Positions 2,570 through 54,436 of a DNA stretch of 64,000 bases are shown here, in pieces. A program made the translations under genes and the position numbers. Positions within the stretch are counted from its first letter, which is position 1, and every line of letters starts with the position of its first letter. The stretch comes from a bacterium (GTDB lineage: Bacteria; Patescibacteriota; Minisyncoccia; Phycocordibacterales; UBA2100): positions 83,947 to 147,946 of the forward strand of contig JAUSGQ010000007.1 in the NCBI GenBank assembly GCA_030674455.1, read 5' to 3'. Under the pieces are notes generated by a model. The model ran no database searches, was not told where the DNA came from, and saw only the letters and a list, made by a program, of their open reading frames with translations.

Positions 2570-3148
2570 ATGACAGAGGAGCGTAAAAAAAATGAGGCTC
2601 CTGAAACGGAGTCTCATGATGAAGTCGATTTTGAACCCGAAGAAGAGTTCGGAACTTTTGGTGCTGCAAAAGCAAAACTCGCCAAATTAAGGGCGGAGCT
2701 TGAGAAGTGCAAAGAAGAAAAGCAGGAATATCTTGTCGGCTGGCAGAGATGCAAAGCCGATTCAATCAATGCGAAAAAAGATGCAATTAATATGGCGGAG
2801 CGGGCGGGAAATCGCGCGCGAGATTCGCTCATCGAAGATATCATTCCGGCGCTTGATAGCTTTGATATGGCGATATCGAGCGGCACATGGGCAACCATGG
2901 ACGAGAATTGGCGCAGGGGAATGGAAAATGTCCGTTCGCAATTGCTTTCGGCTATTTACAATCAGGGGGTTGAAGACTTCGCTGAAATTGGAGACGAATT
3001 TGACCCGGCCATGCATGAAGCGGTGCAAGAAGTTGAAGAGAATGGCGGAAAACCCGGAACTATCGCAAACGTAATTCGCCGCGGGTATCGGAGAGAAAAT
3101 CAGATAATTCGAGCAGCCCAGGTTTCAGTTGTAGTTCACAAAAAATAG
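2570..3148 (+). CDS. grpE: nucleotide exchange factor GrpE
   Basis: It has the GrpE coiled-coil plus C-terminal beta domain (IEDIIPALDSFDMA, FDPAMHEAVQ). The start is set at the internal ATG (MTEERKK). It sits upstream of dnaK. Confidence 0.85.
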   Translation: MTEERKKNEAPETESHDEVDFEPEEEFGTFGAAKAKLAKLRAELEKCKEEKQEYLVGWQRCKADSINAKKDAINMAERAGNRARDSLIEDIIPALDSFDMAISSGTWATMDENWRRGMENVRSQLLSAIYNQGVEDFAEIGDEFDPAMHEAVQEVEENGGKPGTIANVIRRGYRRENQIIRAAQVSVVVHKK

Positions 3149-11114: not shown

Positions 11115-12545
11115 ATGAAATTGGGGACGTATAAGCTTTCCAATAAAGACTTCTTGCGAAGCTATGGCCCTGAGGATATAGAGAATCTCGATACGTCAAG
11201 CAGATACGATTGTGATGTGCTAGTTTGGAATAACAGATATGATTTTTGCTCGGAAATGCTAGTGAGTTTCCCACGTCTAAAATTATTCATAAATTGGGGA
11301 ACTGATGACGCTAACTTGCCTGATTTAGACATGTTGGCGAAGAGGGTTATGGTCAAGAAAGTTGATTTTTACGCACAACAAAGCCTGTGTGAATATGTTC
11401 TTATGTTGATGGTTGCGTTTGAGCACGCTCAAGAGAAAATCTTTCATGATGATGCAGACAATTTCACTATGCAGATTTATGGCAAAAAGATAGGAATTAT
11501 CGGCTTAGGCAAGATCGGTTTTAACGTGGCAAGCTTTCTTCACAAATCCTTCAATTGCATTATCTATTACAACACTACTAAAGATTACCGTATCCCAGAT
11601 TACCAATACGCGTCTAAGGATGACTTGATAAGAGTCTGCGATTACGTAATTATTGTGGCGAAGTCAAGAACGTGTTCTGTTGACCCAAAAGTCATGGAAC
11701 ACGCAAACCCAGATCTTGTTATTCTTAACATCTCGCGGGACAGCATATTGCCCTTCAAGATAATATGTCCATATCTGCAGAGTGGAAAAATTAGAGGGTT
11801 CATAGGCGATGTTACAAAACTAAACCCAGGCGATGGAGTTGCCAAGAATATCCTTATCTCTCCTCGAATTGGCTATCAAACAAAAGAGGCCGTAGAGTTA
11901 AAGCAAAACATCTTATTGTTCTATTTGAAACAATATATGTTTTGTGAGGCCAATAAGAAATCGTATGTTCATATTGCCCGGCATGGTAAGACAGAATGGA
12001 ACTCTTTAAGAATCTACCAAGGCACATATGATTCGCCGCTAACGCACAATGGCAAAGAGGATGCTGAGAAAATTGCTGAATCTCTTGCAGATAAAAAAAT
12101 CGTTCACGTCTTTACAAGTCCTCTCGGTAGGGCTAAAAGAACCGCGGAAATAATTGTCGATAAACTTAATGTACCAATATCAACAATCCCTTCTTTTATT
12201 GAGATGAATTTTGGCATCTTTCAACAAAAACCTCAAGAGCAAATCAAGGAATTGTTTGATGATTTCTTCACAAATCGAAATAATAATGCGCACTACAAGT
12301 TGTTTGTGCCATATCCATCTGGTGAAAGTTATTTTGACGTATATCAACGAATTCTATTTGACATTATGAGGATATTGGTTACGTATGATAATTTTGCAAT
12401 CGTCGGGCACGAAAGTGTTAACAGGATGATAAGGGGAATAATAACCGGCAAGAATCTAACAGAAATGGTTAACGCTAGACAAAAGAATAATGAACTCATT
12501 GCAATAGAATTATCGGAAAATATTGAAAGTGTGATTGTCGTTTGA
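11115..12545 (+). CDS. fusion protein: D-isomer 2-hydroxyacid dehydrogenase-like NAD-binding domain (catalytic Glu/His apparently substituted) plus histidine phosphatase (phosphoglycerate-mutase-like) domain
   Basis: The N-terminal half has a Rossmann GKKIGIIGLGKIGFNVA and an ILNISRDSIL...GKIRGFIGDV core, but the expected EP/PH catalytic residues read NP/PR. The C-terminal half has the RHG motif (HIARHGKTEWN), SPLGRAKRTAEII and a second His (VGHESVNRMIRG) typical of His_Phos_1. Confidence 0.6.
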   Translation: MKLGTYKLSNKDFLRSYGPEDIENLDTSSRYDCDVLVWNNRYDFCSEMLVSFPRLKLFINWGTDDANLPDLDMLAKRVMVKKVDFYAQQSLCEYVLMLMVAFEHAQEKIFHDDADNFTMQIYGKKIGIIGLGKIGFNVASFLHKSFNCIIYYNTTKDYRIPDYQYASKDDLIRVCDYVIIVAKSRTCSVDPKVMEHANPDLVILNISRDSILPFKIICPYLQSGKIRGFIGDVTKLNPGDGVAKNILISPRIGYQTKEAVELKQNILLFYLKQYMFCEANKKSYVHIARHGKTEWNSLRIYQGTYDSPLTHNGKEDAEKIAESLADKKIVHVFTSPLGRAKRTAEIIVDKLNVPISTIPSFIEMNFGIFQQKPQEQIKELFDDFFTNRNNNAHYKLFVPYPSGESYFDVYQRILFDIMRILVTYDNFAIVGHESVNRMIRGIITGKNLTEMVNARQKNNELIAIELSENIESVIVV

Positions 12546-12576: not shown

Positions 12577-13191
12577 ATGATTTCGTCCATGGCATCAATA
12601 ATAACTGAACGAGGAAGAGCAATTCACGGCTGGTTTTTACGCCACAAGGAGCGGATTGGGATTATCGCTATAGGACATACGGCAAAACAGATTGAGGAGT
12701 TTTTCTTAGACTGGCTTTTATACGGATTTGTCGTGTTCAAGAGCGCCGAAATTTGGGGTCCTTATTACGGCGCCTTGGTTGCTTTCGCTGTGATGTCGCC
12801 ATTCTCGGCTTTGCTTTGCTATCTCTACATTCGTTTTTACGACTGGGCAAAAAAAGATTGGCTCGGCTTGGAAACTATCGAGGAGTTTAGGCAATCCGAA
12901 GCAACAGCTGGCCCAATAATGCGATGGGTAATTAAGTTCACTAAACTTGGCGACTTTCCGATGTTCGTTGTGTTATCAATATATGGAGACCCGTTTGTAG
13001 TTACTTTGTATTTCCGGCGCGGAGCGCACTTGTACAACGGCCTTTCAAAACGGGACTGGTCTATTTTTTGGGCAAGCGTAGTGTTCTCCAACGCGTACTG
13101 GACGCTCCAGTGGGGAATTATTGTCGCGCTTTTGCATCCGCTTTGGCAGTATGTATTGCAACCGATTCTCCATTTTGTGGGATTTTTCTAA
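12577..13191 (+). CDS. hypothetical membrane protein (204 aa, ~4 TM)
   Basis: The ORF is hydrophobic. It is co-oriented with, and 31 nt after, the previous gene. No recognisable family. Confidence 0.4.
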   Translation: MISSMASIITERGRAIHGWFLRHKERIGIIAIGHTAKQIEEFFLDWLLYGFVVFKSAEIWGPYYGALVAFAVMSPFSALLCYLYIRFYDWAKKDWLGLETIEEFRQSEATAGPIMRWVIKFTKLGDFPMFVVLSIYGDPFVVTLYFRRGAHLYNGLSKRDWSIFWASVVFSNAYWTLQWGIIVALLHPLWQYVLQPILHFVGFF

Positions 13192-13245
13192 TTCGCGTAA
13201 GTAAGGTTGACAACGTGGTGGAAAACGTCGTATCTCAACTGACGA

Positions 13246-13291
13246 GAAGATTGACTTAAAATATCCGGTCGGATATTTTAAGTCAATCTTC
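13246..13291. promoter_or_regulatory. perfect 22-2-22 palindrome (operator-like) containing an embedded promoter TTGACT-17-TATTTT
   Basis: GAAGATTGACTTAAAATATCCG-GT-CGGATATTTTAAGTCAATCTTC is seen directly. TTGACT lies at 13251-13256, the spacer is 17 nt, and TATTTT lies at 13274-13279, ~45 nt upstream of the MazF-like start. Confidence 0.55.
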
Positions 13292-13325
13292 TAAATTCCA
13301 CTTGAGTTCCCATGCTGGTGCTACA

Positions 13326-13727
13326 ATGGCGCGAATGGGGAAGGAGTTTGACAACTGGAACGAGCGGAAGAAAAAGCTACATAACAGTGAGCGACAGTTA
13401 TTATTTCACGAGCGCGAAATCTGGTGGTGTTCGCTCGGCATCAATATCGGGTTTGAACAAGACGGGACGAATGAACTCTTCGAGCGGCCGGTGTTAATCG
13501 TGAAGAAATTCAATCGGGATGTACTGTGGGCGTTGCCACTCACGCGCTCCGATAAGAAAAACCGATATTATATTCCTATCAGTGTTGGCGGCGCGAATTC
13601 TGCTGTCATACTCTCTCAATTGCGGCTCATCAGTAGCAAGCGTCTCCAAAGGCATATGCACAAGTTGCCACAGGGGCAGTTCAAAGAGATATTGCGTCTC
13701 GTGCAACAGTTTTTCCCGAGCAGGTAA
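13326..13727 (+). CDS. MazF/PemK-family toxin-like endoribonuclease (solitary, no adjacent antitoxin ORF)
   Basis: It aligns motif for motif with MazF/EndoA: [30 protein letters not shown] versus [33 protein letters not shown] versus [26 protein letters not shown] versus ERDSVILLEQIRTIDKQRL. The annotated ORF begins with TTG at 13302. The first ATG is at 13326. Confidence 0.65.
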   Translation: [133 protein letters not shown]

Positions 13728-13732
13728 AATCG

Positions 13733-13761
13733 AAACCCGCCTTGCGGCGGGCTTCTCGGTT
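13733..13761 (+). terminator. putative Rho-independent terminator after the MazF-like gene
   Basis: A GC stem CCCGCC-TTGC-GGCGGG is followed by CTTCTCGGTT, 6 nt after the stop codon. Confidence 0.5.
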
Positions 13762-13815
13762 GGCCTAGTGGCCATTTGTGCTTGCATAATAACAAACCGA
13801 GGAATCCAGTCAAGG

Positions 13816-13845
13816 TTGACAACTGGGTAGAAAACGTCGTATTAT
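13816..13845 (+). promoter_or_regulatory. sigma70-like promoter TTGACA-18-TATTAT upstream of the secreted-protein gene cluster
   Basis: Seen directly. It lies within the second copy of the ~31-bp direct repeat AAGGTTGACAAC..GAAAACGTCGTAT. Confidence 0.5.
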
Positions 13846-13941
13846 ACGGCTACTTCAGCTTCAAATAGTCGTTGGAGGATGCTCTTTTTGTTAGTGAGTG
13901 TTCTTTGACAGGTATCTCAATCGCAATTTTCAGGAGAACTC

Positions 13942-14928
13942 ATGATTTCCCTCAAAGGATTTACCCGTGGCTTCATCGCCACGGTTCTGCTCGCGCTGGC
14001 CGGAGTGAGCGTTGCACAAGCCGGAATCTTTCGGGCACTTTTCAGCGGCTCCCAGGATTCCTTTACCCTGTCGGCCGTACTGCCTGCGTACTGCGGTGGC
14101 AAACGTGTGTATGTCGTCGGTATCACCCGGTCAGGGGAAGCCGCTACGTACGTTGCGTTCACTTCGGTGAACGCACCGGTCGTGTTCGATTTGAACGCGG
14201 CCATTCAGGGACTTGCGGAAATCCCTGAATACACGGCAGCTCGCGCGAGCGACGGGAGTATACCCATCCTCGCGTCTTTCAACGTCACCCCCTACCCCGG
14301 AGGGGAAATCTGGGTCGGCTGCGGAACGTCCACGGTAGACGTTCTCGCAAACTCGAGGTACGGCCGGATTTTGGTTGTGAGCATCTCCTGGTGGCCATCG
14401 CAAAGGTCACCAAACGTTGGGGACACTAGCCAGGGCCCGCAACAAATTCCCAACGATGCGGTGTATGTTGGCGACTGGGGTTGGCAAAGGGCAGTCATAA
14501 ACGGCCTCGTGCCATTCCTAGCCTCAGGAGTGGAACTGACCGGTTATACCACCCGTGCAATTCGATTCGCCTTCTACATTTCCGCCAGCAACACCTCGTG
14601 TATGAAAATGATATATGAGGATGACGGAAGCGCGGTTGGTTTCCCCAATACCAGTGGTGGGGAATGCTTCACCAACAGAATTTCCTGGGCAACAGGTACT
14701 GACGATGGTTATATTGCCTTTTCTCCGGATTTCCAGGGTGGTGTGTGCGCTCATTACACCTGGAACGAGAGCCGATTGACACTCGTCGGACAGAGAATTG
14801 TATGTCCACCTGACTTTCTCCAGATGCACTCTCCAGATACCCTGCCGGCCAGCAGGGTATGTTTTTTATTCACACAAATTGTTGCGCACAATTTGCGTTG
14901 CAAAAGAGATGATATACTTTTTATGTAA
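13942..14928 (+). CDS. hypothetical secreted protein (signal peptide, Cys-containing), GC-rich
   Basis: The N-terminal signal peptide is MISLKGFTRGFIATVLLALAGVSVAQA. An SD AGGAG lies 8 nt upstream. There is a marked GC increase versus the preceding island. No family recognised. Confidence 0.5.
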   Translation: MISLKGFTRGFIATVLLALAGVSVAQAGIFRALFSGSQDSFTLSAVLPAYCGGKRVYVVGITRSGEAATYVAFTSVNAPVVFDLNAAIQGLAEIPEYTAARASDGSIPILASFNVTPYPGGEIWVGCGTSTVDVLANSRYGRILVVSISWWPSQRSPNVGDTSQGPQQIPNDAVYVGDWGWQRAVINGLVPFLASGVELTGYTTRAIRFAFYISASNTSCMKMIYEDDGSAVGFPNTSGGECFTNRISWATGTDDGYIAFSPDFQGGVCAHYTWNESRLTLVGQRIVCPPDFLQMHSPDTLPASRVCFLFTQIVAHNLRCKRDDILFM

Positions 14929-19219: not shown

Positions 19220-19425
19220 TCTGCCATTTCCAGTGTAGTAAAATCAACCGATATGTTGACAGGTGCAGATATTAAGAAATTAAAAGTTGTCTTTACTTCA
19301 AAACCTAACTATATTCCAATCAGAAAACAACTAGCGCGCCACGAGCATTGGATAAAACAGATTGCTAGGAAGGTTGGTGTCGTGCTAGCTGAATGAATCC
19401 ATACATCATATAATTTCAATTTGTT

Positions 19426-19457
19426 CTACAGGACAATTCCATGGAATTGTCCTGTAG
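19426..19457. repeat. 32-bp perfect palindrome CTACAGGACAATTCCATGGAATTGTCCTGTAG
   Basis: Seen directly, 47 nt upstream of the ArsR-like gene. Confidence 0.8.
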
Positions 19458-19503
19458 AATGAGTTATGTCGATAACGATTAACAATTATAAATCGAGGTT
19501 TCT

Positions 19504-27900: not shown

Positions 27901-30711
27901 GCATTGCGTCTGGCTTTGAATAATTCATACGGCGAATCCGGTCGAGAGCCTCAGGATTATTATGGCACTGAAACTGTCGCTAACGTTAAGACATTCCAAT
28001 CAATACATCGTATTGAGCAGACTGGCATTGTTGAAGTTCAAACCTCAGCAAAATTGAACGATATCTTTGGATGCCAGCAGACAACCCCCACCTCTGACCC
28101 CATTATCTCTTCATTCACCCCCGAGTCGGTTGTGGCCGGAGCAACAACAAACATAGTAGTTAAAGGCCGCAACTTCCAGTTGGGAGCGGTTCTTGTCTAC
28201 ACTCTCGGTTCTGATACAGGCGAGTTGCCAACGACTTTTACGCCTGCGCCGATTCCGGGGCAAGAACAAAAATTGACCACCGGACGATATACCATTGACG
28301 CAGTAGGAAGTTATACCTTCCACGTCAAAAATCCCGACGGAAGAAGAAGCGAGGAAAAGATATTTGTTGTTACTCCGCGTGGGCAAGGAACTCAAACAAA
28401 CACTACTGCCGATAGTCCGCTGGCGTCCGCTCCCCAAATCCAATTTACCGTGAATGGTTCTGCGTATAGCGGTTCTAGATACGATGTATCTTTTGGAAGC
28501 ACAGTAAATATCGGGTGGAAGGTCACCAATCCATCCGGCGCAATATGTTCCGCCGCAGGAAACGGCATTGGAGATAATTTAGGTTCCGGCTCTATGCAAG
28601 CCAGCAATTCGTGGACAAACTGGACAACGCCGCCTCTTTACACCAGCACCACATACGGCATCAAATGCACCAACTCTCGAGGAACTACATACAAATACGT
28701 GTATGTGACGGTTGCGCCGCAGACAAACACATCGGGGGGCCCCGGTATCAGCATCACTGTTGACCCTGTTGACGCCAATACTAGCAACACATCTTACAGT
28801 GAAAGTTCTCCGCGAGTCAGCGTTGGGTTTGGAAAGAAGGTCAATATCGGTTGGGGCGTCACCAACGCCGGGGGCAGTACTTCGGGCATTACATGCTACG
28901 CAGCCGGAACAGGGCTAGGCGGAAGAAATGGTTATGAGAGCACTCCTTTAAGCGGCCTATGGACTACGCCGGCACTCTATACCGACACTACCTATGGAAT
29001 ACAATGCAAGAACTCGGCAGGCGCAATCACAAACAGATACATCTCTATTGATGTCGGCGAGCAGGCGAACACCGCCACTGCAATCACCCCGCCCGCCATC
29101 ACCATTAACGGTGATAGTAGTAACAATCAGCAACTTACATATTCCCCAGAAGTTGCATTTGGCGGCACTGCCAATATCAACTGGAGCGTTTCTCCGACGA
29201 GCGGCACCACTTGCTCCGCCGCAGGCAACGGCGTCTGGGGCAACACCGGTTCCGGTTCCGCAGAGTTAAGCGGCTCGTTCGCTACGCCGCCCCTCTACAC
29301 CAAAACCACGTACGGCATCAGATGCACTAACTCCGCCGGTACTACGTACAAGTACATAACCATCGGCATTCAAGAACAACAAAACACCACCACCACCGCC
29401 AGCACTCCCGCGCCAACTATCACCATTACGCCGCCTAGCGCGTCAATCGACTTTGGCGATAGCGCCACCTTCGGCTGGGATGTGACGCCACAAACTGCCG
29501 ATACCAAGTGCTATGCCGCGGGAACTGGTCTGGGCGGGGCAGAGGGATACCAAGAGATAGGCCTAACCGGAAGAAATTGGGTTACGCCGGCGCTCTACAC
29601 TTACACTACGTATGGAATAAAGTGTACAAACCCGGGCGGCACGACATACAAGTACGTGAACGTTTCTGTCGCCCCACAGCAGAGTACGACTTGCACCGAA
29701 GTCCCACAAACTCCGCTACCATGCGCCGACTATGCCGGTTCGTACGGAGTTCCTGCAGGATACACAGTCGGCAACGGCTCGTGGACAAAGAACAGCTGCA
29801 CCGGCAATCCAACCTACACTGGCGGGTGTTCGGCTCCCGCTCCAACCACACAGTCCTGCACCGAAGTTCCACAAACCCCACTGCCATGCGCCGACTACGC
29901 CGGCTCATACGGAGTCCCATCCGGATACACAGTCGGCAACGGTTCATGGACGAAAAATAGCTGCACAGGCAATCCAACTTATACCGGCGGCTGTTCTGCG
30001 CCAGCTCCAACGCAATCTTGCACCGAGGTCGCTCAAACTCCTCTACCGTGCGCCGACTACGCCGGCTCATACGGAGTCCCATCCGGATACACAGTCGGCA
30101 ACGGTTCATGGACGAAAAATAGCTGCACAGGCAATCCCACATACACGGGTGGTTGCTCCGCTCCCTCTGTCCCGACAGTCCGGCTCTCACAAAATTCGAG
30201 CAGTGGTACATCGGTCACTGTCACCTGGAGTTCCGACAATGCCGATTCATGCCGCCTTCAATACAATCTAAACGGAGGAGCCTGGACTGATTGGACATCG
30301 GGCGGTTCAAGCGGTTCAGTGAGCGGAGATTTGACTTCAGGAACGTGGAAAGCCAGAGCCATATGCACCGGCCCGGGCGGTACGACGACGAGTAGCACGA
30401 TAACCCACACTGTGGCAATCAGTTCTTCGCCCTTGAGCCAGACGGCGAGCGCCGCTGGCGCATTTCCAGAAGGAGAGGATGCGTTTATCTACACATGGAA
30501 CAATGACCTTCAGCTTAACTCGCGGTACGCGGCAGACATCAAGGCATTGCAGACTGCACTCGCGAAAGAAGGGGTGTACATCGGAGAAGTAACTGGAGGA
30601 TTCCACATGCAAACGTATTACGGGGTTAAAAGATTCCAAGAGAAGTACGGAATTGACTCCACCGGCTTTGTCGGCCCGCAAACGAGGGCAAGACTCAACG
30701 AGCTGTACTGA
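24970..30711 (+). CDS. giant secreted multidomain protein: metzincin-type zinc metallopeptidase domain, Ig-like/repeat domains, two peptidoglycan-binding domains
   Basis: A signal peptide is present (start possibly at MLRKFTFGGIGLALLITPLFASA, 25021). HEMGHELGVMH equals the HExxHxxGxxH metzincin motif. There are 4-5 ~95-aa repeats ending ...YGIKCTNSxGTTYKYVxV, and 3 tandem ~55-aa Cys repeats (CTEVPQTPLPCADYAGSYGVP...). PG_binding_1-like segments are present internally and at the C-terminus (YAADIKALQTALAKEGVY...GVKRFQEKYGIDSTGFVGPQTRARL). Confidence 0.7.
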   Translation: MYATIRLLPCLKASLLFMLRKFTFGGIGLALLITPLFASADTTSDATELSRWEAVVTCLKIKVDNHDYVNALSCLGAGTAANTLFSPSVSSLKAGALAAVATTFTQSSGSNSAEPATDAEKEAEMLTDLLSSKIAPEPVTRSKVGAFASESEKVKQQVQVAKHRGQLMKQLAEDNPEAFLRNVMPESQRSKFSTEVKNEIEQKVALTGKVEVVHLDDFTNHENSKFNYFLQSGGSRISLKVAGNTPAMLSGSSVRANGYKLGQTLVVAANSNSDGDSGGGGGLTVLSRPALESARTQRTLVILVTSPGQASTPTKEEMRNLIFSGNINRYYEEQSYGNVRFEGDVTDWISVPASSYPVYGPIELDQSDISSYISRNHIDLSLYDRVMTVVNGWAGGYAWAGKVDRLINGVTYRLSIGSTGWSVSGWAVENMSGFENVFSHEMGHELGVMHANSRECSGPSLDRDCRHNEYGNAFDIMGYGNNAEHFNAYYKDSLGWLDNSSKVSITQSGRYSLSPIEARTGVRAGIITNPATPSALPLYLEFRQPMGYDSILPPNSAGLQLNQVVTRGPYDWLPFPWLINANYATDPPCNPGFPCFSQPSLMQGSNFSWAGRGISIGSLVTTPTLATFDVGLTQPLCERNGLYDSNNNPYWQQRVAAGSSATLQINLTNGNTIACGPSTVEFSTSVTNSSGWSISQYPNESNERVVIAPGETERVYVSLSLPEDAAPGNRTVRITVSDLTNGRSYNIERTITVTARPTITEIFPSSGRAATAVTLKGTGFNEYPGNTININGGNLSATIRNVIARAGTLTFTFPTTFESYGGGSEPRPSQVPPPLGQYSIAVSRNDDGGTASATFTVTSGNSAFPTITSINPSSTTGRPTNFTIIGTNFQSGSMIYYTYAGTGSIPSGTFTPTFNPSRPDRLTFTTASLPKGIYTFYVKNPDGQISDTENVTVFCYDFRSIPLQEGSQGADVIALKQALRLALNNSYGESGREPQDYYGTETVANVKTFQSIHRIEQTGIVEVQTSAKLNDIFGCQQTTPTSDPIISSFTPESVVAGATTNIVVKGRNFQLGAVLVYTLGSDTGELPTTFTPAPIPGQEQKLTTGRYTIDAVGSYTFHVKNPDGRRSEEKIFVVTPRGQGTQTNTTADSPLASAPQIQFTVNGSAYSGSRYDVSFGSTVNIGWKVTNPSGAICSAAGNGIGDNLGSGSMQASNSWTNWTTPPLYTSTTYGIKCTNSRGTTYKYVYVTVAPQTNTSGGPGISITVDPVDANTSNTSYSESSPRVSVGFGKKVNIGWGVTNAGGSTSGITCYAAGTGLGGRNGYESTPLSGLWTTPALYTDTTYGIQCKNSAGAITNRYISIDVGEQANTATAITPPAITINGDSSNNQQLTYSPEVAFGGTANINWSVSPTSGTTCSAAGNGVWGNTGSGSAELSGSFATPPLYTKTTYGIRCTNSAGTTYKYITIGIQEQQNTTTTASTPAPTITITPPSASIDFGDSATFGWDVTPQTADTKCYAAGTGLGGAEGYQEIGLTGRNWVTPALYTYTTYGIKCTNPGGTTYKYVNVSVAPQQSTTCTEVPQTPLPCADYAGSYGVPAGYTVGNGSWTKNSCTGNPTYTGGCSAPAPTTQSCTEVPQTPLPCADYAGSYGVPSGYTVGNGSWTKNSCTGNPTYTGGCSAPAPTQSCTEVAQTPLPCADYAGSYGVPSGYTVGNGSWTKNSCTGNPTYTGGCSAPSVPTVRLSQNSSSGTSVTVTWSSDNADSCRLQYNLNGGAWTDWTSGGSSGSVSGDLTSGTWKARAICTGPGGTTTSSTITHTVAISSSPLSQTASAAGAFPEGEDAFIYTWNNDLQLNSRYAADIKALQTALAKEGVYIGEVTGGFHMQTYYGVKRFQEKYGIDSTGFVGPQTRARLNELY
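29692..30180 (+). repeat. three tandem in-frame coding repeats (165/162/162 nt), copies 2 and 3 near-identical at DNA level
   Basis: An ~86-nt stretch (29889-29974 versus 30051-30136) is identical between copies 2 and 3. Copy 1 starts at 29692. Confidence 0.8.
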
Positions 30712-30753
30712 CCTCTATTCAAGGTTCCACCTTGAATAGAGGTTTCAAGTTTT
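30712..30753 (+). terminator. Rho-independent terminator after the giant gene
   Basis: A 13-bp perfect stem CCTCTATTCAAGG / CCTTGAATAGAGG with loop TTCCA, then TTTCAAGTTTT, begins the nucleotide after the stop codon. Confidence 0.6.
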
Positions 30754-30876
30754 GACAATCGAAGCCCCCGAGGAAACACCTTCCATGGTCAAGGAGTTAC
30801 CTCGAAGACAAATTAGACATCCGATGTCTAATTTGCTTGGTTTGGCGGGAAAGAATGGAGGACGTACAATAGGGCA

Positions 30877-31938
30877 ATGATATCCGACCTCGCGCGGGTG
30901 CTTATTCCGGCTGGAGCGTCGTTTGCAATTGGGATTCTATTAACGCCGCTGTTGACCCACTATTTATACAAATACAAAGCCTGGAAAAAACAACCGGGGA
31001 AAACCGCCATCGATGGCACGCAGGCATCGGAGTTCTACAGGCTTCACGAGAAGAACGAAGTGCGCGCTCCGCGCATGGGCGGCATCGTCGTGTGGGGAAG
31101 CGTAGTGCTTACAATACTGGGAATTGCAATTGTTTCTAAATTCGTAGCGGGCGCGGAAATTCTCAACCTGGACTTTTTGAGCCGAAGTCAGACATGGATA
31201 CCGCTCGCGGCGCTCATCATCGGTTCGCTTGCCGGCCTCATAGACGACTTAATGGTCATTAGACCAAGCAAGGATGGTATGCCGCTTCGCCTGCGGCTCC
31301 TCATCGTCATCTTTCTTTCTTCGTATGCCGGCTGGTGGTTTTGGCACAAGCTCGACGTAACAACGGTCAACATCCCGTTCGGAACACCGCTTGAGCTCGG
31401 GTGGTTAATCGTCCCTCTCTTCGTCACCATCGCTCTTGCAGTATACGCATCGGGCGTTATAGACGGCATAGATGGCCTATCCGGCGGAGTATTTGCTTCG
31501 ATTTTTGCGTCGTACTCGATCATTGCATTCGCACAGAATCAAATCGACCTCGCTGCCTTTTGCGCCGCCATAGTCGGAGGCCTTCTTGCGTTCTTGTGGT
31601 TCAACATACCGCCTGCGAGATTTTATATGTCGGATACCGGTACGATGGGGCTCACGCTCGCGCTCGCAGTTATCGCGTTCATGACGGACAGCCTGGGCGA
31701 AGGAGTAGGCATTGCGGTATTGCCAATTATCGGAGGATTGCTCGTCGTTACAGTGGCATCGAATATCGTGCAAGTGGCATACAAAAGAATCTTGGGGAGA
31801 AAATTACTGCGCATCGCCCCGCTCCACCATCACTTTGAGGCGATAGGGTGGCCGGGATATAAGGTCGTCATGCGCTACTGGGTGCTTTCAATCGTGTTAG
31901 CTTTCGCGGGTGTTATCGTCGCGCTGGTTTCTATCTAG
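30877..31938 (+). CDS. mraY: phospho-N-acetylmuramoyl-pentapeptide transferase
   Basis: It is a multi-TM protein with the conserved MraY motifs (DDLMVI..., the HHHFE motif near the C-terminus, and the GIDGLSGG aspartate-rich loop). Confidence 0.9.
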   Translation: MISDLARVLIPAGASFAIGILLTPLLTHYLYKYKAWKKQPGKTAIDGTQASEFYRLHEKNEVRAPRMGGIVVWGSVVLTILGIAIVSKFVAGAEILNLDFLSRSQTWIPLAALIIGSLAGLIDDLMVIRPSKDGMPLRLRLLIVIFLSSYAGWWFWHKLDVTTVNIPFGTPLELGWLIVPLFVTIALAVYASGVIDGIDGLSGGVFASIFASYSIIAFAQNQIDLAAFCAAIVGGLLAFLWFNIPPARFYMSDTGTMGLTLALAVIAFMTDSLGEGVGIAVLPIIGGLLVVTVASNIVQVAYKRILGRKLLRIAPLHHHFEAIGWPGYKVVMRYWVLSIVLAFAGVIVALVSI

Positions 31939-54378: not shown

Positions 54379-54436
54379 CGGAGTTTATCAAAACATTCCA
54401 ACATTCTCAAGAATGTTGGAATGTTTTGACGGCATT

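What the first reader, a model, noticed from the sequence alone, without database searches (positions are those of the whole stretch)
13203..13845. Solitary MazF/PemK-like toxin cassette with a 46-nt perfect palindromic operator-promoter and 31-bp flanking direct repeats
A MazF-family gene (13326-13727) aligns strongly with EndoA/MazF. It has no antitoxin ORF on either side. 134 bp upstream is promoter and palindrome only, and downstream is a terminator and then the next promoter. Its own promoter, TTGACT-17-TATTTT, is embedded in a perfect 22-2-22 palindrome (13246-13291). That is the arrangement expected for an autoregulated TA operator, yet the usual partner gene is absent. The cassette is flanked by a ~31-bp direct repeat AAGGTTGACAAC..GGT.GAAAACGTCGTAT (13203-13233 and 13812-13842, 28/31 identical). 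Each copy carries a TTGACA -35, and a third partial copy lies at 13894-13914. This could be one of three things. It could be an inserted cassette with target or promoter duplication. It could be an orphan toxin controlled by a trans-encoded antitoxin. Or it could be a MazF-fold protein repurposed, for example for abortive defence.
Basis: partly seen in the sequence, partly recalled or inferred. Interest (0 to 1): 0.65.

Follow-up and report, generated by a model that had tools for sequence, protein, structure and literature searches.

The report
MazF-like toxin with convergent small-RNA partner
The "solitary" MazF-type toxin gene is not alone: the "terminator" just after its stop codon is a conserved ~55-nt small-RNA gene on the opposite strand, probably the missing antitoxin, and the same two-part module recurs in hundreds of candidate-phyla-radiation (CPR) bacterial genomes.

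Summary
The gene, the palindrome, the 31-nt flanking repeat and the lack of an antitoxin ORF are all real. The interpretation missed the partner.

- **The partner.** Window 13725-13780 (minus strand) is a small-RNA gene. It has its own TTGACT-16-TATTAT promoter, two covarying hairpins and an intrinsic terminator that abuts the toxin's stop codon.
- **Conservation.** About 66 of 80 homologous loci carry it, almost all from Patescibacteria. It is always convergent and always sits directly after the stop codon. No protein-coding neighbour is conserved.
- **Experimental analogue.** A 33%-identical homologue on Campylobacter jejuni plasmid pVir (pVir0047) has a Northern-confirmed 77-nt convergent sRNA, CJpv3, in the same position. 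This is probably the published type I pair cjrA/cjpT, which I could not confirm.
- **Best reading.** A MazF-family endoribonuclease toxin whose antitoxin is an antisense RNA covering its 3' UTR. Direct RNA-protein inhibition is not excluded.
- **Toxin promoter.** The mRNA is probably leaderless, from TGCTACAAT 7 nt upstream of ATG 13335.
- **Palindrome.** It is not conserved in homologous loci and is one of three similar intergenic hairpins in the window, so it is unlikely to be a TA operator.
- **Flanking repeats.** They occur in 7 of 53 loci but have mixed origins. Insertion of a cassette is plausible but unproven.

The sRNA family is absent from Rfam 15.

The parts
13203..13233 (+). Left copy of the 31-nt direct repeat. 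It carries TTGACA and a weak -10 (TATCTC) and starts 12 nt after the stop of the upstream gene (13191).
13245..13292 (.). Perfect 23-2-23 palindrome, AT-rich. Not a family feature. Probably a terminator or insulator hairpin like those at 54388-54429 and 19424-19459.
   Evidence: Rfam gives only sub-threshold hairpin hits.
13319..13327 (+). Extended -10 promoter TGcTACAAT, 7 nt upstream of ATG 13335. Predicted promoter of a leaderless toxin mRNA.
   Evidence: Read. The same layout occurs in 32 of 56 homologous loci against 11% of random positions. An SD-like motif occurs in only 3 of 56.
13335..13727 (+). MazF/PemK-family gene, 130 aa, with an N-terminal FDxWNxxKK helix not found in canonical MazF. 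An alternative ATG lies at 13326. The source's own gene call also starts at 13335.
13725..13780 (-). Convergent small-RNA gene, ~55 nt, predicted TSS about 13779. Layout: 5' ACAAAUGG; hairpin P2 (13762-13765 pairs with 13770-13773); linker AACCGA, holding the near-invariant CCGAG (13755-13759); hairpin P1 (13732-13741 pairs with 13746-13755); tail GAUUUU, which overlaps the toxin stop codon.
   Evidence: CM hit 58.8 bits, E about 1e-15, the only significant one in the window. Fold -28.5 kcal/mol, z -6.25. Covariation. Minus-strand terminator call.
13786..13813 (-). Promoter of the sRNA: -35 TTGACT (13813-13808), 16-nt spacer, TG-extended -10 TATTAT (13791-13786).
   Evidence: 10/12 match. Conserved in position in 57 of 62 loci against 2.3% of random 45-mers.
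13812..13842 (+). Right copy of the 31-nt direct repeat. It holds most of a TTGACA-18-TATTAT promoter (13816-13845, 11/12), probably for the next gene (ATG 13942). Its first two bases overlap the sRNA -35.

Best explanation
The locus is a compact two-gene toxin-antitoxin-like module of about 0.5 kb.

(1) The toxin is a MazF/PemK-fold endoribonuclease, probably translated from a leaderless mRNA.

(2) The partner is a ~55-nt non-coding RNA transcribed convergently from its own sigma-70 promoter. It ends at an intrinsic terminator that abuts the toxin's stop codon, so it is exactly antisense to the toxin's 3' UTR.

The RNA takes the place of the missing MazE-type protein. The most likely mode is type I-like. 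The sRNA pairs with the 3' UTR of the toxin mRNA and the duplex is cleaved, for example by RNase III. That removes the protective 3' hairpins and lowers toxin synthesis. When the labile RNA is lost, the toxin is released.

Shown here: the existence, conservation and structure of the RNA gene, its promoter and terminator, its linkage to the toxin gene, and the lack of a protein partner.

Inferred: that it is transcribed in this organism, that the protein is toxic, and that the RNA neutralises it.
For: RNA gene and its linkage to the toxin:
- The sequence after the stop codon is conserved in homologues while the upstream region is not.
- Covariance model R1 finds the element directly after the stop, always on the opposite strand, in about 66 of 80 loci, and once in the window.
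- 93% of cells pair and 14 of 15 pairs show compensatory changes. None of 500 shuffles reaches these values, and slid controls pair at 43-63%.
- G-U outnumbers A-C 37:11, which favours the minus-strand RNA.
- TTGACA-N16-18-TATAAT sits at a fixed distance on the minus strand in 57 of 62 loci, against 2.3% of controls. The window's promoter and terminator are called independently.

No alternative partner:
- The AUG in the RNA is not followed by a conserved ORF: lengths run 2-93 codons, and 2-3 in the closest relatives.
- No flanking protein family recurs in more than 3 of about 75 loci.
- No antitoxin domain is found in the window.

Toxin:
- The fold is MazF, and the catalytic Arg and Thr align with those of EndoA.

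Experimental analogue:
- C. jejuni pVir0047 is 33% identical (E 4e-17).
- It is followed by sRNA CJpv3: minus strand, 31119->31043, 77 nt, Northern-confirmed, with one of the strongest TSS signals in the pVir rows seen, ending 5 nt after the stop (Dugar 2013, PMC3656092, Tables S5 and S12).
- pVir carries a validated type I pair with an RNA antitoxin (cjrA) and a protein toxin (cjpT), as cited in PMC7826846 and PMC10470494.
- Nitratiruptor and Helicobacter suis plasmid homologues show the same layout.
Against: - There is no transcript data for this organism or any CPR member.
- I could not read Shen et al. 2016, so cjpT = pVir0047 and cjrA = CJpv3 remain inferences.
- Unpaired nucleotides of the RNA (AAAU, CCGAG) are invariant or nearly so across proteins only 45-50% identical. 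A purely cis-antisense mechanism does not require this, so a protein or RNase may recognise these bases.
- The 3' end of the toxin mRNA is unknown, so the length of the overlap is unknown.
- I found no extra complementarity to the coding region (mean z -0.06). Control would therefore have to act only through the 3' end.
- Toxicity is assumed from family membership.
Confidence: 0.6

Rival explanations
1. Type III-like control. The same sRNA is the antitoxin, but it acts on the protein. It binds the RNA-binding groove of the MazF-like dimer as a pseudo-substrate through its conserved single-stranded ACAAAUGG and/or CCGAG segments.
For: - Single-stranded positions are invariant or nearly so, while stems covary and loops vary.
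- The toxin is a sequence-specific ssRNA-binding nuclease fold. Known type III toxins also have a Kid/MazF-like fold (my own knowledge).
- The protein itself is unusually conserved, 55-87% identity across CPR classes.
- The lysine-rich N-terminal helix could be an added RNA contact (low confidence).
Against: - There is no tandem repeat array and the RNA is not upstream, unlike all described type III systems.
- The conserved AUUUG and AAAUCGAAA strings can be explained partly as U-tracts of the two convergent terminators.
- The Campylobacter analogue is cited as type I.
Confidence: 0.22
2. There is no antitoxin function. The element is only a compact bidirectional terminator plus a promoter that insulates the gene. 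The MazF-like protein is a non-toxic or otherwise regulated housekeeping RNase, or an orphan toxin controlled in trans.
For: - P1 and P2 can serve as terminators for the two strands.
- The protein is highly conserved in small CPR genomes.
Against: - A promoter firing into a terminator 55 nt away has no purpose unless the short RNA, or the act of transcribing it, matters.
- The promoter is conserved in 57 of 62 loci, including a horizontally transferred copy in Methylocystis.
- The homologous RNA is abundant in Campylobacter.
Confidence: 0.1
3. An orphan, autoregulated toxin whose palindrome (13245-13292) is an operator-promoter bound by a trans-encoded protein antitoxin.
For: - The palindrome is perfect and unique in the window.
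- It contains a 9/12 promoter match.
Against: - The palindrome is not conserved in any of the 55 other loci examined.
- Two similar long palindromes lie at other intergenic sites in the window.
- The family-wide promoter is the extended -10 next to the ATG.
- No antitoxin-type protein is encoded in the window.
Confidence: 0.05

Closest known systems
C. jejuni pVir locus pVir0047 / sRNA CJpv3. This is probably the type I pair cjpT/cjrA of Shen et al., Mol Microbiol 2016, PMID 27291507. The paper is not held, so the identification is my inference.
   Same: - The toxin belongs to the same MazF subfamily with the N-terminal FDxWNxxKK extension (33% identity).
- There is no adjacent protein antitoxin.
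- A convergent sRNA has its own sigma-70 promoter, and its terminator hairpin ends within a few nt of the toxin stop codon.
   Different: - The RNA is 77 nt with three hairpins, not ~55 nt with two.
- There is no detectable sequence similarity; model R1 does not find it.
- The Campylobacter toxin mRNA has a 26-nt leader (TSS 30608), whereas the CPR mRNAs look leaderless.
- It is plasmid- or prophage-borne in Campylobacterota, against chromosomal contigs in CPR.
Type I TA systems with 3'-overlapping convergent RNAs: B. subtilis txpA/RatA and bsrG/SR4, and E. faecalis par (my own knowledge).
   Same: - Convergent toxin mRNA and antitoxin sRNA.
- They overlap at their 3' ends and share terminator structures.
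- The RNA has its own constitutive-looking promoter.
   Different: - Those toxins are small hydrophobic membrane peptides; here the toxin is a 130-aa MazF-fold RNase.
- I found no extra 5' complementarity of the par type.
Canonical type II MazEF/PemIK, such as B. subtilis EndoA/EndoAI
   Same: - Toxin fold, and conserved catalytic Arg and Thr positions.
- Pfam PF02452 membership.
   Different: - No MazE/PemI gene.
- An added N-terminal helix.
- About 19% identity only.
- The partner is an RNA.
Type III TA systems (ToxIN, CptIN, TenpIN)
   Same: - An endoribonuclease toxin of Kid/MazF-like fold with an RNA partner.
- Conserved single-stranded RNA segments are compatible with protein recognition.
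   Different: - The toxin is not of the ToxN/AbiQ family.
- There is no tandem repeat array upstream.
- The RNA is single-copy, convergent and downstream, and has its own promoter.

Membership tests
MazF/PemK endoribonuclease toxin family (Pfam PF02452) | Match to the family HMM above the curated cut-off | tested here: met
   45.8 bits against a cut-off of 23.1, E 7.9e-12, residues 30-130. PHROG 'MazF-like growth inhibitor' E 3e-12. No NCBIfam model matches.
MazF/PemK endoribonuclease toxin family (Pfam PF02452) | MazF/Kid SH3-like barrel fold | tested here: met
   AlphaFold model has mean pLDDT 67.7, core 76-84. The 50 best Foldseek PDB matches listed are MazF-family toxin chains or MazEF complexes, TM 0.53-0.74.
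MazF/PemK endoribonuclease toxin family (Pfam PF02452) | Catalytic Arg and Thr (Arg25/Thr48 of B. subtilis EndoA; residue roles from my own knowledge) | tested here: met
   The profile alignment puts 'fERPvl' on 'vRPVL' and 'lpLTrs' on 'aaITaq'. R51 is invariant and T70 at least 90% conserved in the family.
MazF/PemK endoribonuclease toxin family (Pfam PF02452) | Sequence-specific RNA cleavage and growth inhibition | not testable with these tools
   Needs expression and cleavage assays.
Type II MazEF toxin-antitoxin operon | Adjacent, co-transcribed protein antitoxin (MazE/PemI/AbrB/RHH/PHD type) | tested here: not met
   No ORF in the 134-nt upstream or ~215-nt downstream spacer. No flanking ORF family recurs in more than 3 of about 75 loci. 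No such domain among 42 small ORFs of the window.
Type II MazEF toxin-antitoxin operon | Operator palindrome in the promoter, conserved with the module | tested here: not met
   The palindrome is present only in the window. The family-wide promoter lies elsewhere.
Type I toxin-antitoxin system (3'-overlap class) | Cis-encoded antisense sRNA with its own promoter and terminator, overlapping the toxin transcript | tested here: met
   Shown by sequence and comparison only. Transcription is shown experimentally only for the Campylobacter homologue.
Type I toxin-antitoxin system (3'-overlap class) | Toxin is a small hydrophobic peptide (typical, not universal) | tested here: not met
   The toxin is a 130-aa soluble MazF-fold protein.
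Type I toxin-antitoxin system (3'-overlap class) | The RNA lowers toxin mRNA stability or translation by base pairing | not testable with these tools
   Only the cis complementarity is given. There is no added complementarity to the CDS.
Type III toxin-antitoxin system | Tandem array of antitoxin RNA repeats upstream of a ToxN/AbiQ-family toxin | tested here: not met
   No tandem repeats in 12900-14100. The toxin is PF02452. The RNA is single-copy and downstream.
Type III toxin-antitoxin system | The RNA binds and inhibits the toxin protein directly | not testable with these tools
   Conserved unpaired bases are compatible with this but not diagnostic.
Any Rfam 15 RNA family | Match at the gathering score | tested here: not met
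   No hit at the sRNA in the window (E<=10) or in 8 homologous loci (E<=1). The best overlapping hit is rnk_pseudo, 36 bits against 55.

The most novel reading that the evidence does not exclude
A large, strongly conserved MazF subfamily has replaced the MazE protein by a dedicated ~55-nt RNA that inhibits the nuclease directly at the protein level. The subfamily spans at least 527 loci in the species-representative genome set, mostly Patescibacteria. The RNA would act through its invariant single-stranded ACAAAUGG / CCGAG segments. This would be a new RNA-antitoxin architecture for the best-studied 'type II' toxin family, and a mobile 0.5-kb module in ultra-small genomes.
Probability: 0.22. 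Interest if true: 0.85.

Novelty: new variant of a known kind. Interest (0 to 1): 0.66.

Why it matters
**Annotation.** MazF/PemK proteins are annotated everywhere as 'type II' toxins, and copies without MazE are written off as orphans. Here a whole subfamily is systematically paired with a small RNA instead. It has at least 527 loci in 185,579 species-representative genomes. The 80 best examined come almost all from Patescibacteria, with distant relatives on Campylobacterota plasmids and prophages.

**What follows from it:**
- 'Solitary MazF' calls in these genomes would need to be re-read.
- A structured sRNA family that is not in Rfam is added to a phylum where almost no regulatory RNAs are known.
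- It gives a minimal, easily synthesised system of about 500 bp. With it one can test whether an RNA can control a MazF nuclease at the mRNA level, the protein level, or both.
- It gives an evolutionary context to the little-noticed Campylobacter cjrA/cjpT system.

Tried and rejected
- **Protein antitoxin.** No ORF in the spacers. No recurrent neighbour family. No antitoxin domain in the window's small ORFs.
- **Small peptide encoded by the sRNA.** 10 of 74 copies lack the ATG, ORF lengths run 2-93 codons, and the closest relatives stop after 2-3 codons.
- **Trans pairing of the sRNA with the toxin CDS or 5' end.** RNAduplex against shuffles gives mean z -0.06. This is a crude test.
- **Known RNA family.** None in Rfam 15.
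- **Known defence system.** No PADLOC match.
- **Type III repeat array.** None.
- **Integron attC site or transposon end** (considered, not tested formally). Covarying stems plus a positioned sigma-70 promoter and a U-tract fit an RNA gene. There is no array of cassettes.
- **Palindrome as a family operator.** Absent elsewhere.
- **Empty-site test for the window.** The 31-mer has no match in metagenome contigs. The downstream gene has no homologue other than itself among 5.8 billion proteins.
- **Empty-site test for L010.** Its 71-nt 'flanking repeat' is a dispersed multi-copy repeat in 35 contigs. Only the filled locus was recovered.
- **Literature.** Ten full-text searches found no description of a MazF/PemK plus convergent sRNA module in CPR. 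T1TAdb does not list cjrA/cjpT. Shen et al. 2016 is not held.
- **Phage carriage.** Only one distant relative in IMG/VR.
- **tRNA genes.** None anywhere in the window.

Full report
**1. What is at the coordinates.**
- The region holds an ORF matching Pfam PemK_toxin (E 7.9e-12).
- It holds a perfect palindrome with 23-nt arms at 13245-13267 and 13270-13292.
- It holds a 31-nt direct repeat at 13203-13233 and 13812-13842, 28/31 identical. There are two copies in the window against 0.00 expected.
- No ORF that could encode an antitoxin lies in the 134-nt upstream or the ~215-nt downstream spacer.
- The 'third partial repeat' was not reported by the repeat finder.

**2. The protein.**
- It has 655 relatives in the protein collection. 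They are about 130 aa long and mostly from Kaiserbacteria, Paceibacterota and other Patescibacteria, at 55-87% identity.
- 527 loci were found in the species-representative genome set, and 80 were kept. Nearly all are Patescibacteria, plus one Methylocystis.
- The family is unusually conserved, with 32 invariant columns among 22 diverse members.
- It has an N-terminal FDxWNxxKK helix that canonical MazF lacks.
- An AlphaFold model (mean pLDDT 67.7, core 76-84) matches only MazF-family structures, with TM 0.53-0.74 and 11-21% identity.
- The profile alignment places the family's invariant ERP arginine and PLT threonine on the positions of EndoA that I take, from memory, to be the catalytic Arg25 and Thr48.
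- I use ATG 13335 as the start. This fits the homologues and the source's own gene call of 130 aa.

**3. The overlooked partner.**
- In two paralogous Kaiserbacteria loci the upstream region is unrelated to the window. The 60-100 nt after the stop codon are nearly identical.
- Across the 80 loci the same element follows the stop codon.
- Read on the strand opposite to the gene, it runs: TTGACA, 16-18 nt, TATAAT, about 6 nt, ACAAAUGG, a short hairpin (P2), CCGAG(A/G)A, a 9-12-bp GC-rich hairpin (P1), and a U-rich tail that ends on the complement of the stop codon.
- A covariance model built from 42 copies (R1) finds the element in about 66 of 80 loci, always convergent and always at the stop codon. 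It finds exactly one significant copy in the window: 13725-13780, minus strand, 58.8 bits, E about 1e-15.
- 93% of cells pair and 14 of 15 pairs have compensatory changes. None of 500 shuffles reaches the observed values, and slid registers pair at 43-63%.
- G-U pairs outnumber A-C mismatches 37:11, as expected if the minus strand is the RNA. That alignment was fitted to the minus-strand model.
- The promoter motif scores at least 9/12 in 57 of 62 loci, against 2.3% of random 45-mers.
- In the window, the generic scanner independently reports a minus-strand promoter TTGACT-16-TATTAT with a TG extension (13813-13786). It also reports a minus-strand terminator, 13755-13732 plus GATTTT.
- The RNA folds at -28.5 kcal/mol, z -6.25.
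- The AUG inside ACAAAUGG does not head a conserved ORF.
- No Rfam family matches.

**4. No protein partner.**
- Flanking ORFs of at least 35 aa from about 75 loci form no family present in more than 3 loci.
- The window's 42 unassigned small ORFs give ribosomal proteins, an ArsR-type HTH and weak zinc-ribbon hits. None gives a MazE, AbrB, RHH or PHD domain.
- The conserved unit is therefore toxin gene plus sRNA gene, in varying genomic contexts.

**5. Toxin promoter and the palindrome.**
- In 32 of 56 loci a -10-like hexamer ends 5-9 nt (mostly 6-7) before the ATG, against 11% of controls. In 17 of these it is TG-extended. Only 3 of 56 loci have an SD-like motif.
- In the window this is TGCTACAAT (13319-13327), followed by 7 nt and then ATG 13335. 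The mRNA is therefore probably leaderless.
- The palindrome is absent from all 55 other loci examined. Some of those loci have ordinary terminator hairpins of upstream genes.
- The window holds two more long perfect intergenic palindromes: 54388-54429, between convergent genes, and 19424-19459.
- I read 13245-13292 as a terminator or insulator hairpin typical of this genome, not as a TA operator. This is an inference.

**6. The direct repeat and the cassette idea.**
- Long repeats flanking the module, different in sequence at each locus, occur in 7 of 53 loci. They are 30-89 nt long, and shuffled controls reach scores of about 10-13.
- They have mixed origins. In L025 and L046 the repeat is the promoter that sits directly in front of the next gene's ATG. 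In L057 it appears to be the 3' end of an upstream ORF, because it ends in an in-frame stop. In L068 it looks like a repeated coding motif.
- In L010 it is a dispersed 71-nt repeat found in 35 metagenome contigs. Only those representing the same filled locus carry the module.
- Flanking repeats are therefore not proof of target-site duplication.
- For the window, no empty site could be recovered.
- The right copy holds most of the strongest promoter match in the region (TTGACA-18-TATTAT, 11/12), which probably serves the next gene.

**7. Link to known systems.**
- tblastn finds relatives of 29-36% identity with the same N-terminal extension. They lie on Campylobacter, Helicobacter and Nitratiruptor plasmids and on CJIE4-type prophages.
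- On C. jejuni 81-176 pVir the gene is CJJ81176_pVir0047 (30634-31038), with no annotated partner.
- From the sequence I predicted a convergent promoter TTGATT-17-TATAAT and a hairpin-rich RNA ending at the stop codon.
- The supplement of Dugar et al. 2013 (PMC3656092) lists exactly this. TSS 31119 on the minus strand has one of the strongest signals in the pVir rows seen. sRNA CJpv3 runs 31119->31043, is 77 nt long and was detected on a Northern blot.
- pVir is reported to carry a type I pair, cjrA (RNA antitoxin) and cjpT (protein toxin), from Shen et al. 2016, as cited in PMC7826846 and PMC10470494.
- The paper itself is not held. That cjpT/cjrA equals pVir0047/CJpv3 is my inference, which I rate at about 70-80% likely.
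- Nitratiruptor and H. suis homologues show the same convergent layout. R1 does not detect them.

**8. Mechanism.**
- Shown: a conserved, structured, independently promoted and terminated RNA gene that is antisense to the toxin's 3' UTR and co-inherited with it.
- Inferred: it is the antitoxin.
- The sense-strand scan calls P2 plus UUUGU as a weak terminator. The toxin mRNA may therefore extend across the whole sRNA, giving a duplex of about 55 bp. That fits type I systems with 3' overlap.
- One point speaks against a purely antisense model. The unpaired AAAU and GAG are invariant and the flanking bases are at least 90% conserved. This could reflect the two terminators' U-tracts, an RNase site, or recognition by the toxin itself (type III-like).
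- My estimates:

| Proposition | Probability |
|---|---|
| RNA antitoxin of some kind | about 0.8 |
| Mainly antisense | 0.6 |
| Mainly protein-level | 0.2 |

**9. Novelty and limits.**
- The kind of system is probably already known from one Campylobacter plasmid: a protein toxin with a convergent antisense RNA.
- In the literature and libraries I could search, three things are not described. These are that a whole MazF subfamily is built this way, that it dominates in Patescibacteria, and that it has its own sRNA family there.
- Everything about function rests on comparative sequence evidence.
- Only the best 80 of the 527 loci were examined.
- E-values from R1 are rough.
- The structure model is of moderate confidence.

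Noticed in passing
L010 2341-2411 and 3011-3081; L096-L130: The 71-nt repeat that flanks the module in Kaiserbacteria locus L010 is a dispersed multi-copy element. It occurs in 35 metagenome contigs at 93-100% identity, often at contig ends. In three contigs it forms an inverted pair 6.8-9 kb apart (L097, L111, L127). This could be a MITE-like or transposon-end repeat of Kaiserbacteria.
   Followed up: partly
window 54388-54429 and 19424-19459: Two further long perfect palindromes (20-2-20 and 18-0-18) lie in intergenic positions, one of them between convergent genes. Together with 13245-13292 they suggest that this genome uses long AT-rich hairpins as terminators or insulators.
   Followed up: partly
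L038 3829-3885 (-): An orphan sRNA-like copy (37 bits) sits directly after a 116-aa predicted membrane-protein gene, about 940 nt from the MazF-like module. The RNA may also pair with other genes or survive as a remnant.
   Followed up: partly
L065 3154-3582: A second, more divergent MazF-like gene with its own convergent sRNA lies in tandem with the first module. Two paralogous modules also exist in one Kaiserbacteria genome (L004/L006) and in one Paceibacterota genome (L042/L078).
   Followed up: partly
L025 2462-2493 / 2976-3007; L046 638-675 / 1182-1219: In these loci the flanking repeat is the promoter lying 1-7 nt before the ATG of both the toxin gene and the next gene. It looks as if the module had been inserted between a leaderless host gene and its promoter, and the promoter was duplicated.
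   Followed up: partly
window 13942-14928: The downstream 328-aa signal-peptide protein is an ORFan. The only match among 5.8 billion proteins is itself (NCBI MAG, locus tag Q7S01_01480). The genes after it also lack Pfam domains. GC content rises from 39% (11-13 kb) to 53% (14-15 kb).
   Followed up: partly
L090 1655-1843: On the Nitratiruptor plasmid a 62-aa ORF begins 74 nt after the toxin's stop and overlaps the predicted sRNA promoter region. By eye it looks RHH-like (MQDKRMTQKTIRVEDDLWDKFKKIA...). It could be a plasmid copy-control protein or a protein antitoxin in that lineage.
   Followed up: no
window 11115-12545: A fusion protein combines a 2-hydroxyacid dehydrogenase NAD-binding domain with a histidine phosphatase domain (Pfam). 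It lies two genes upstream of the module.
   Followed up: no
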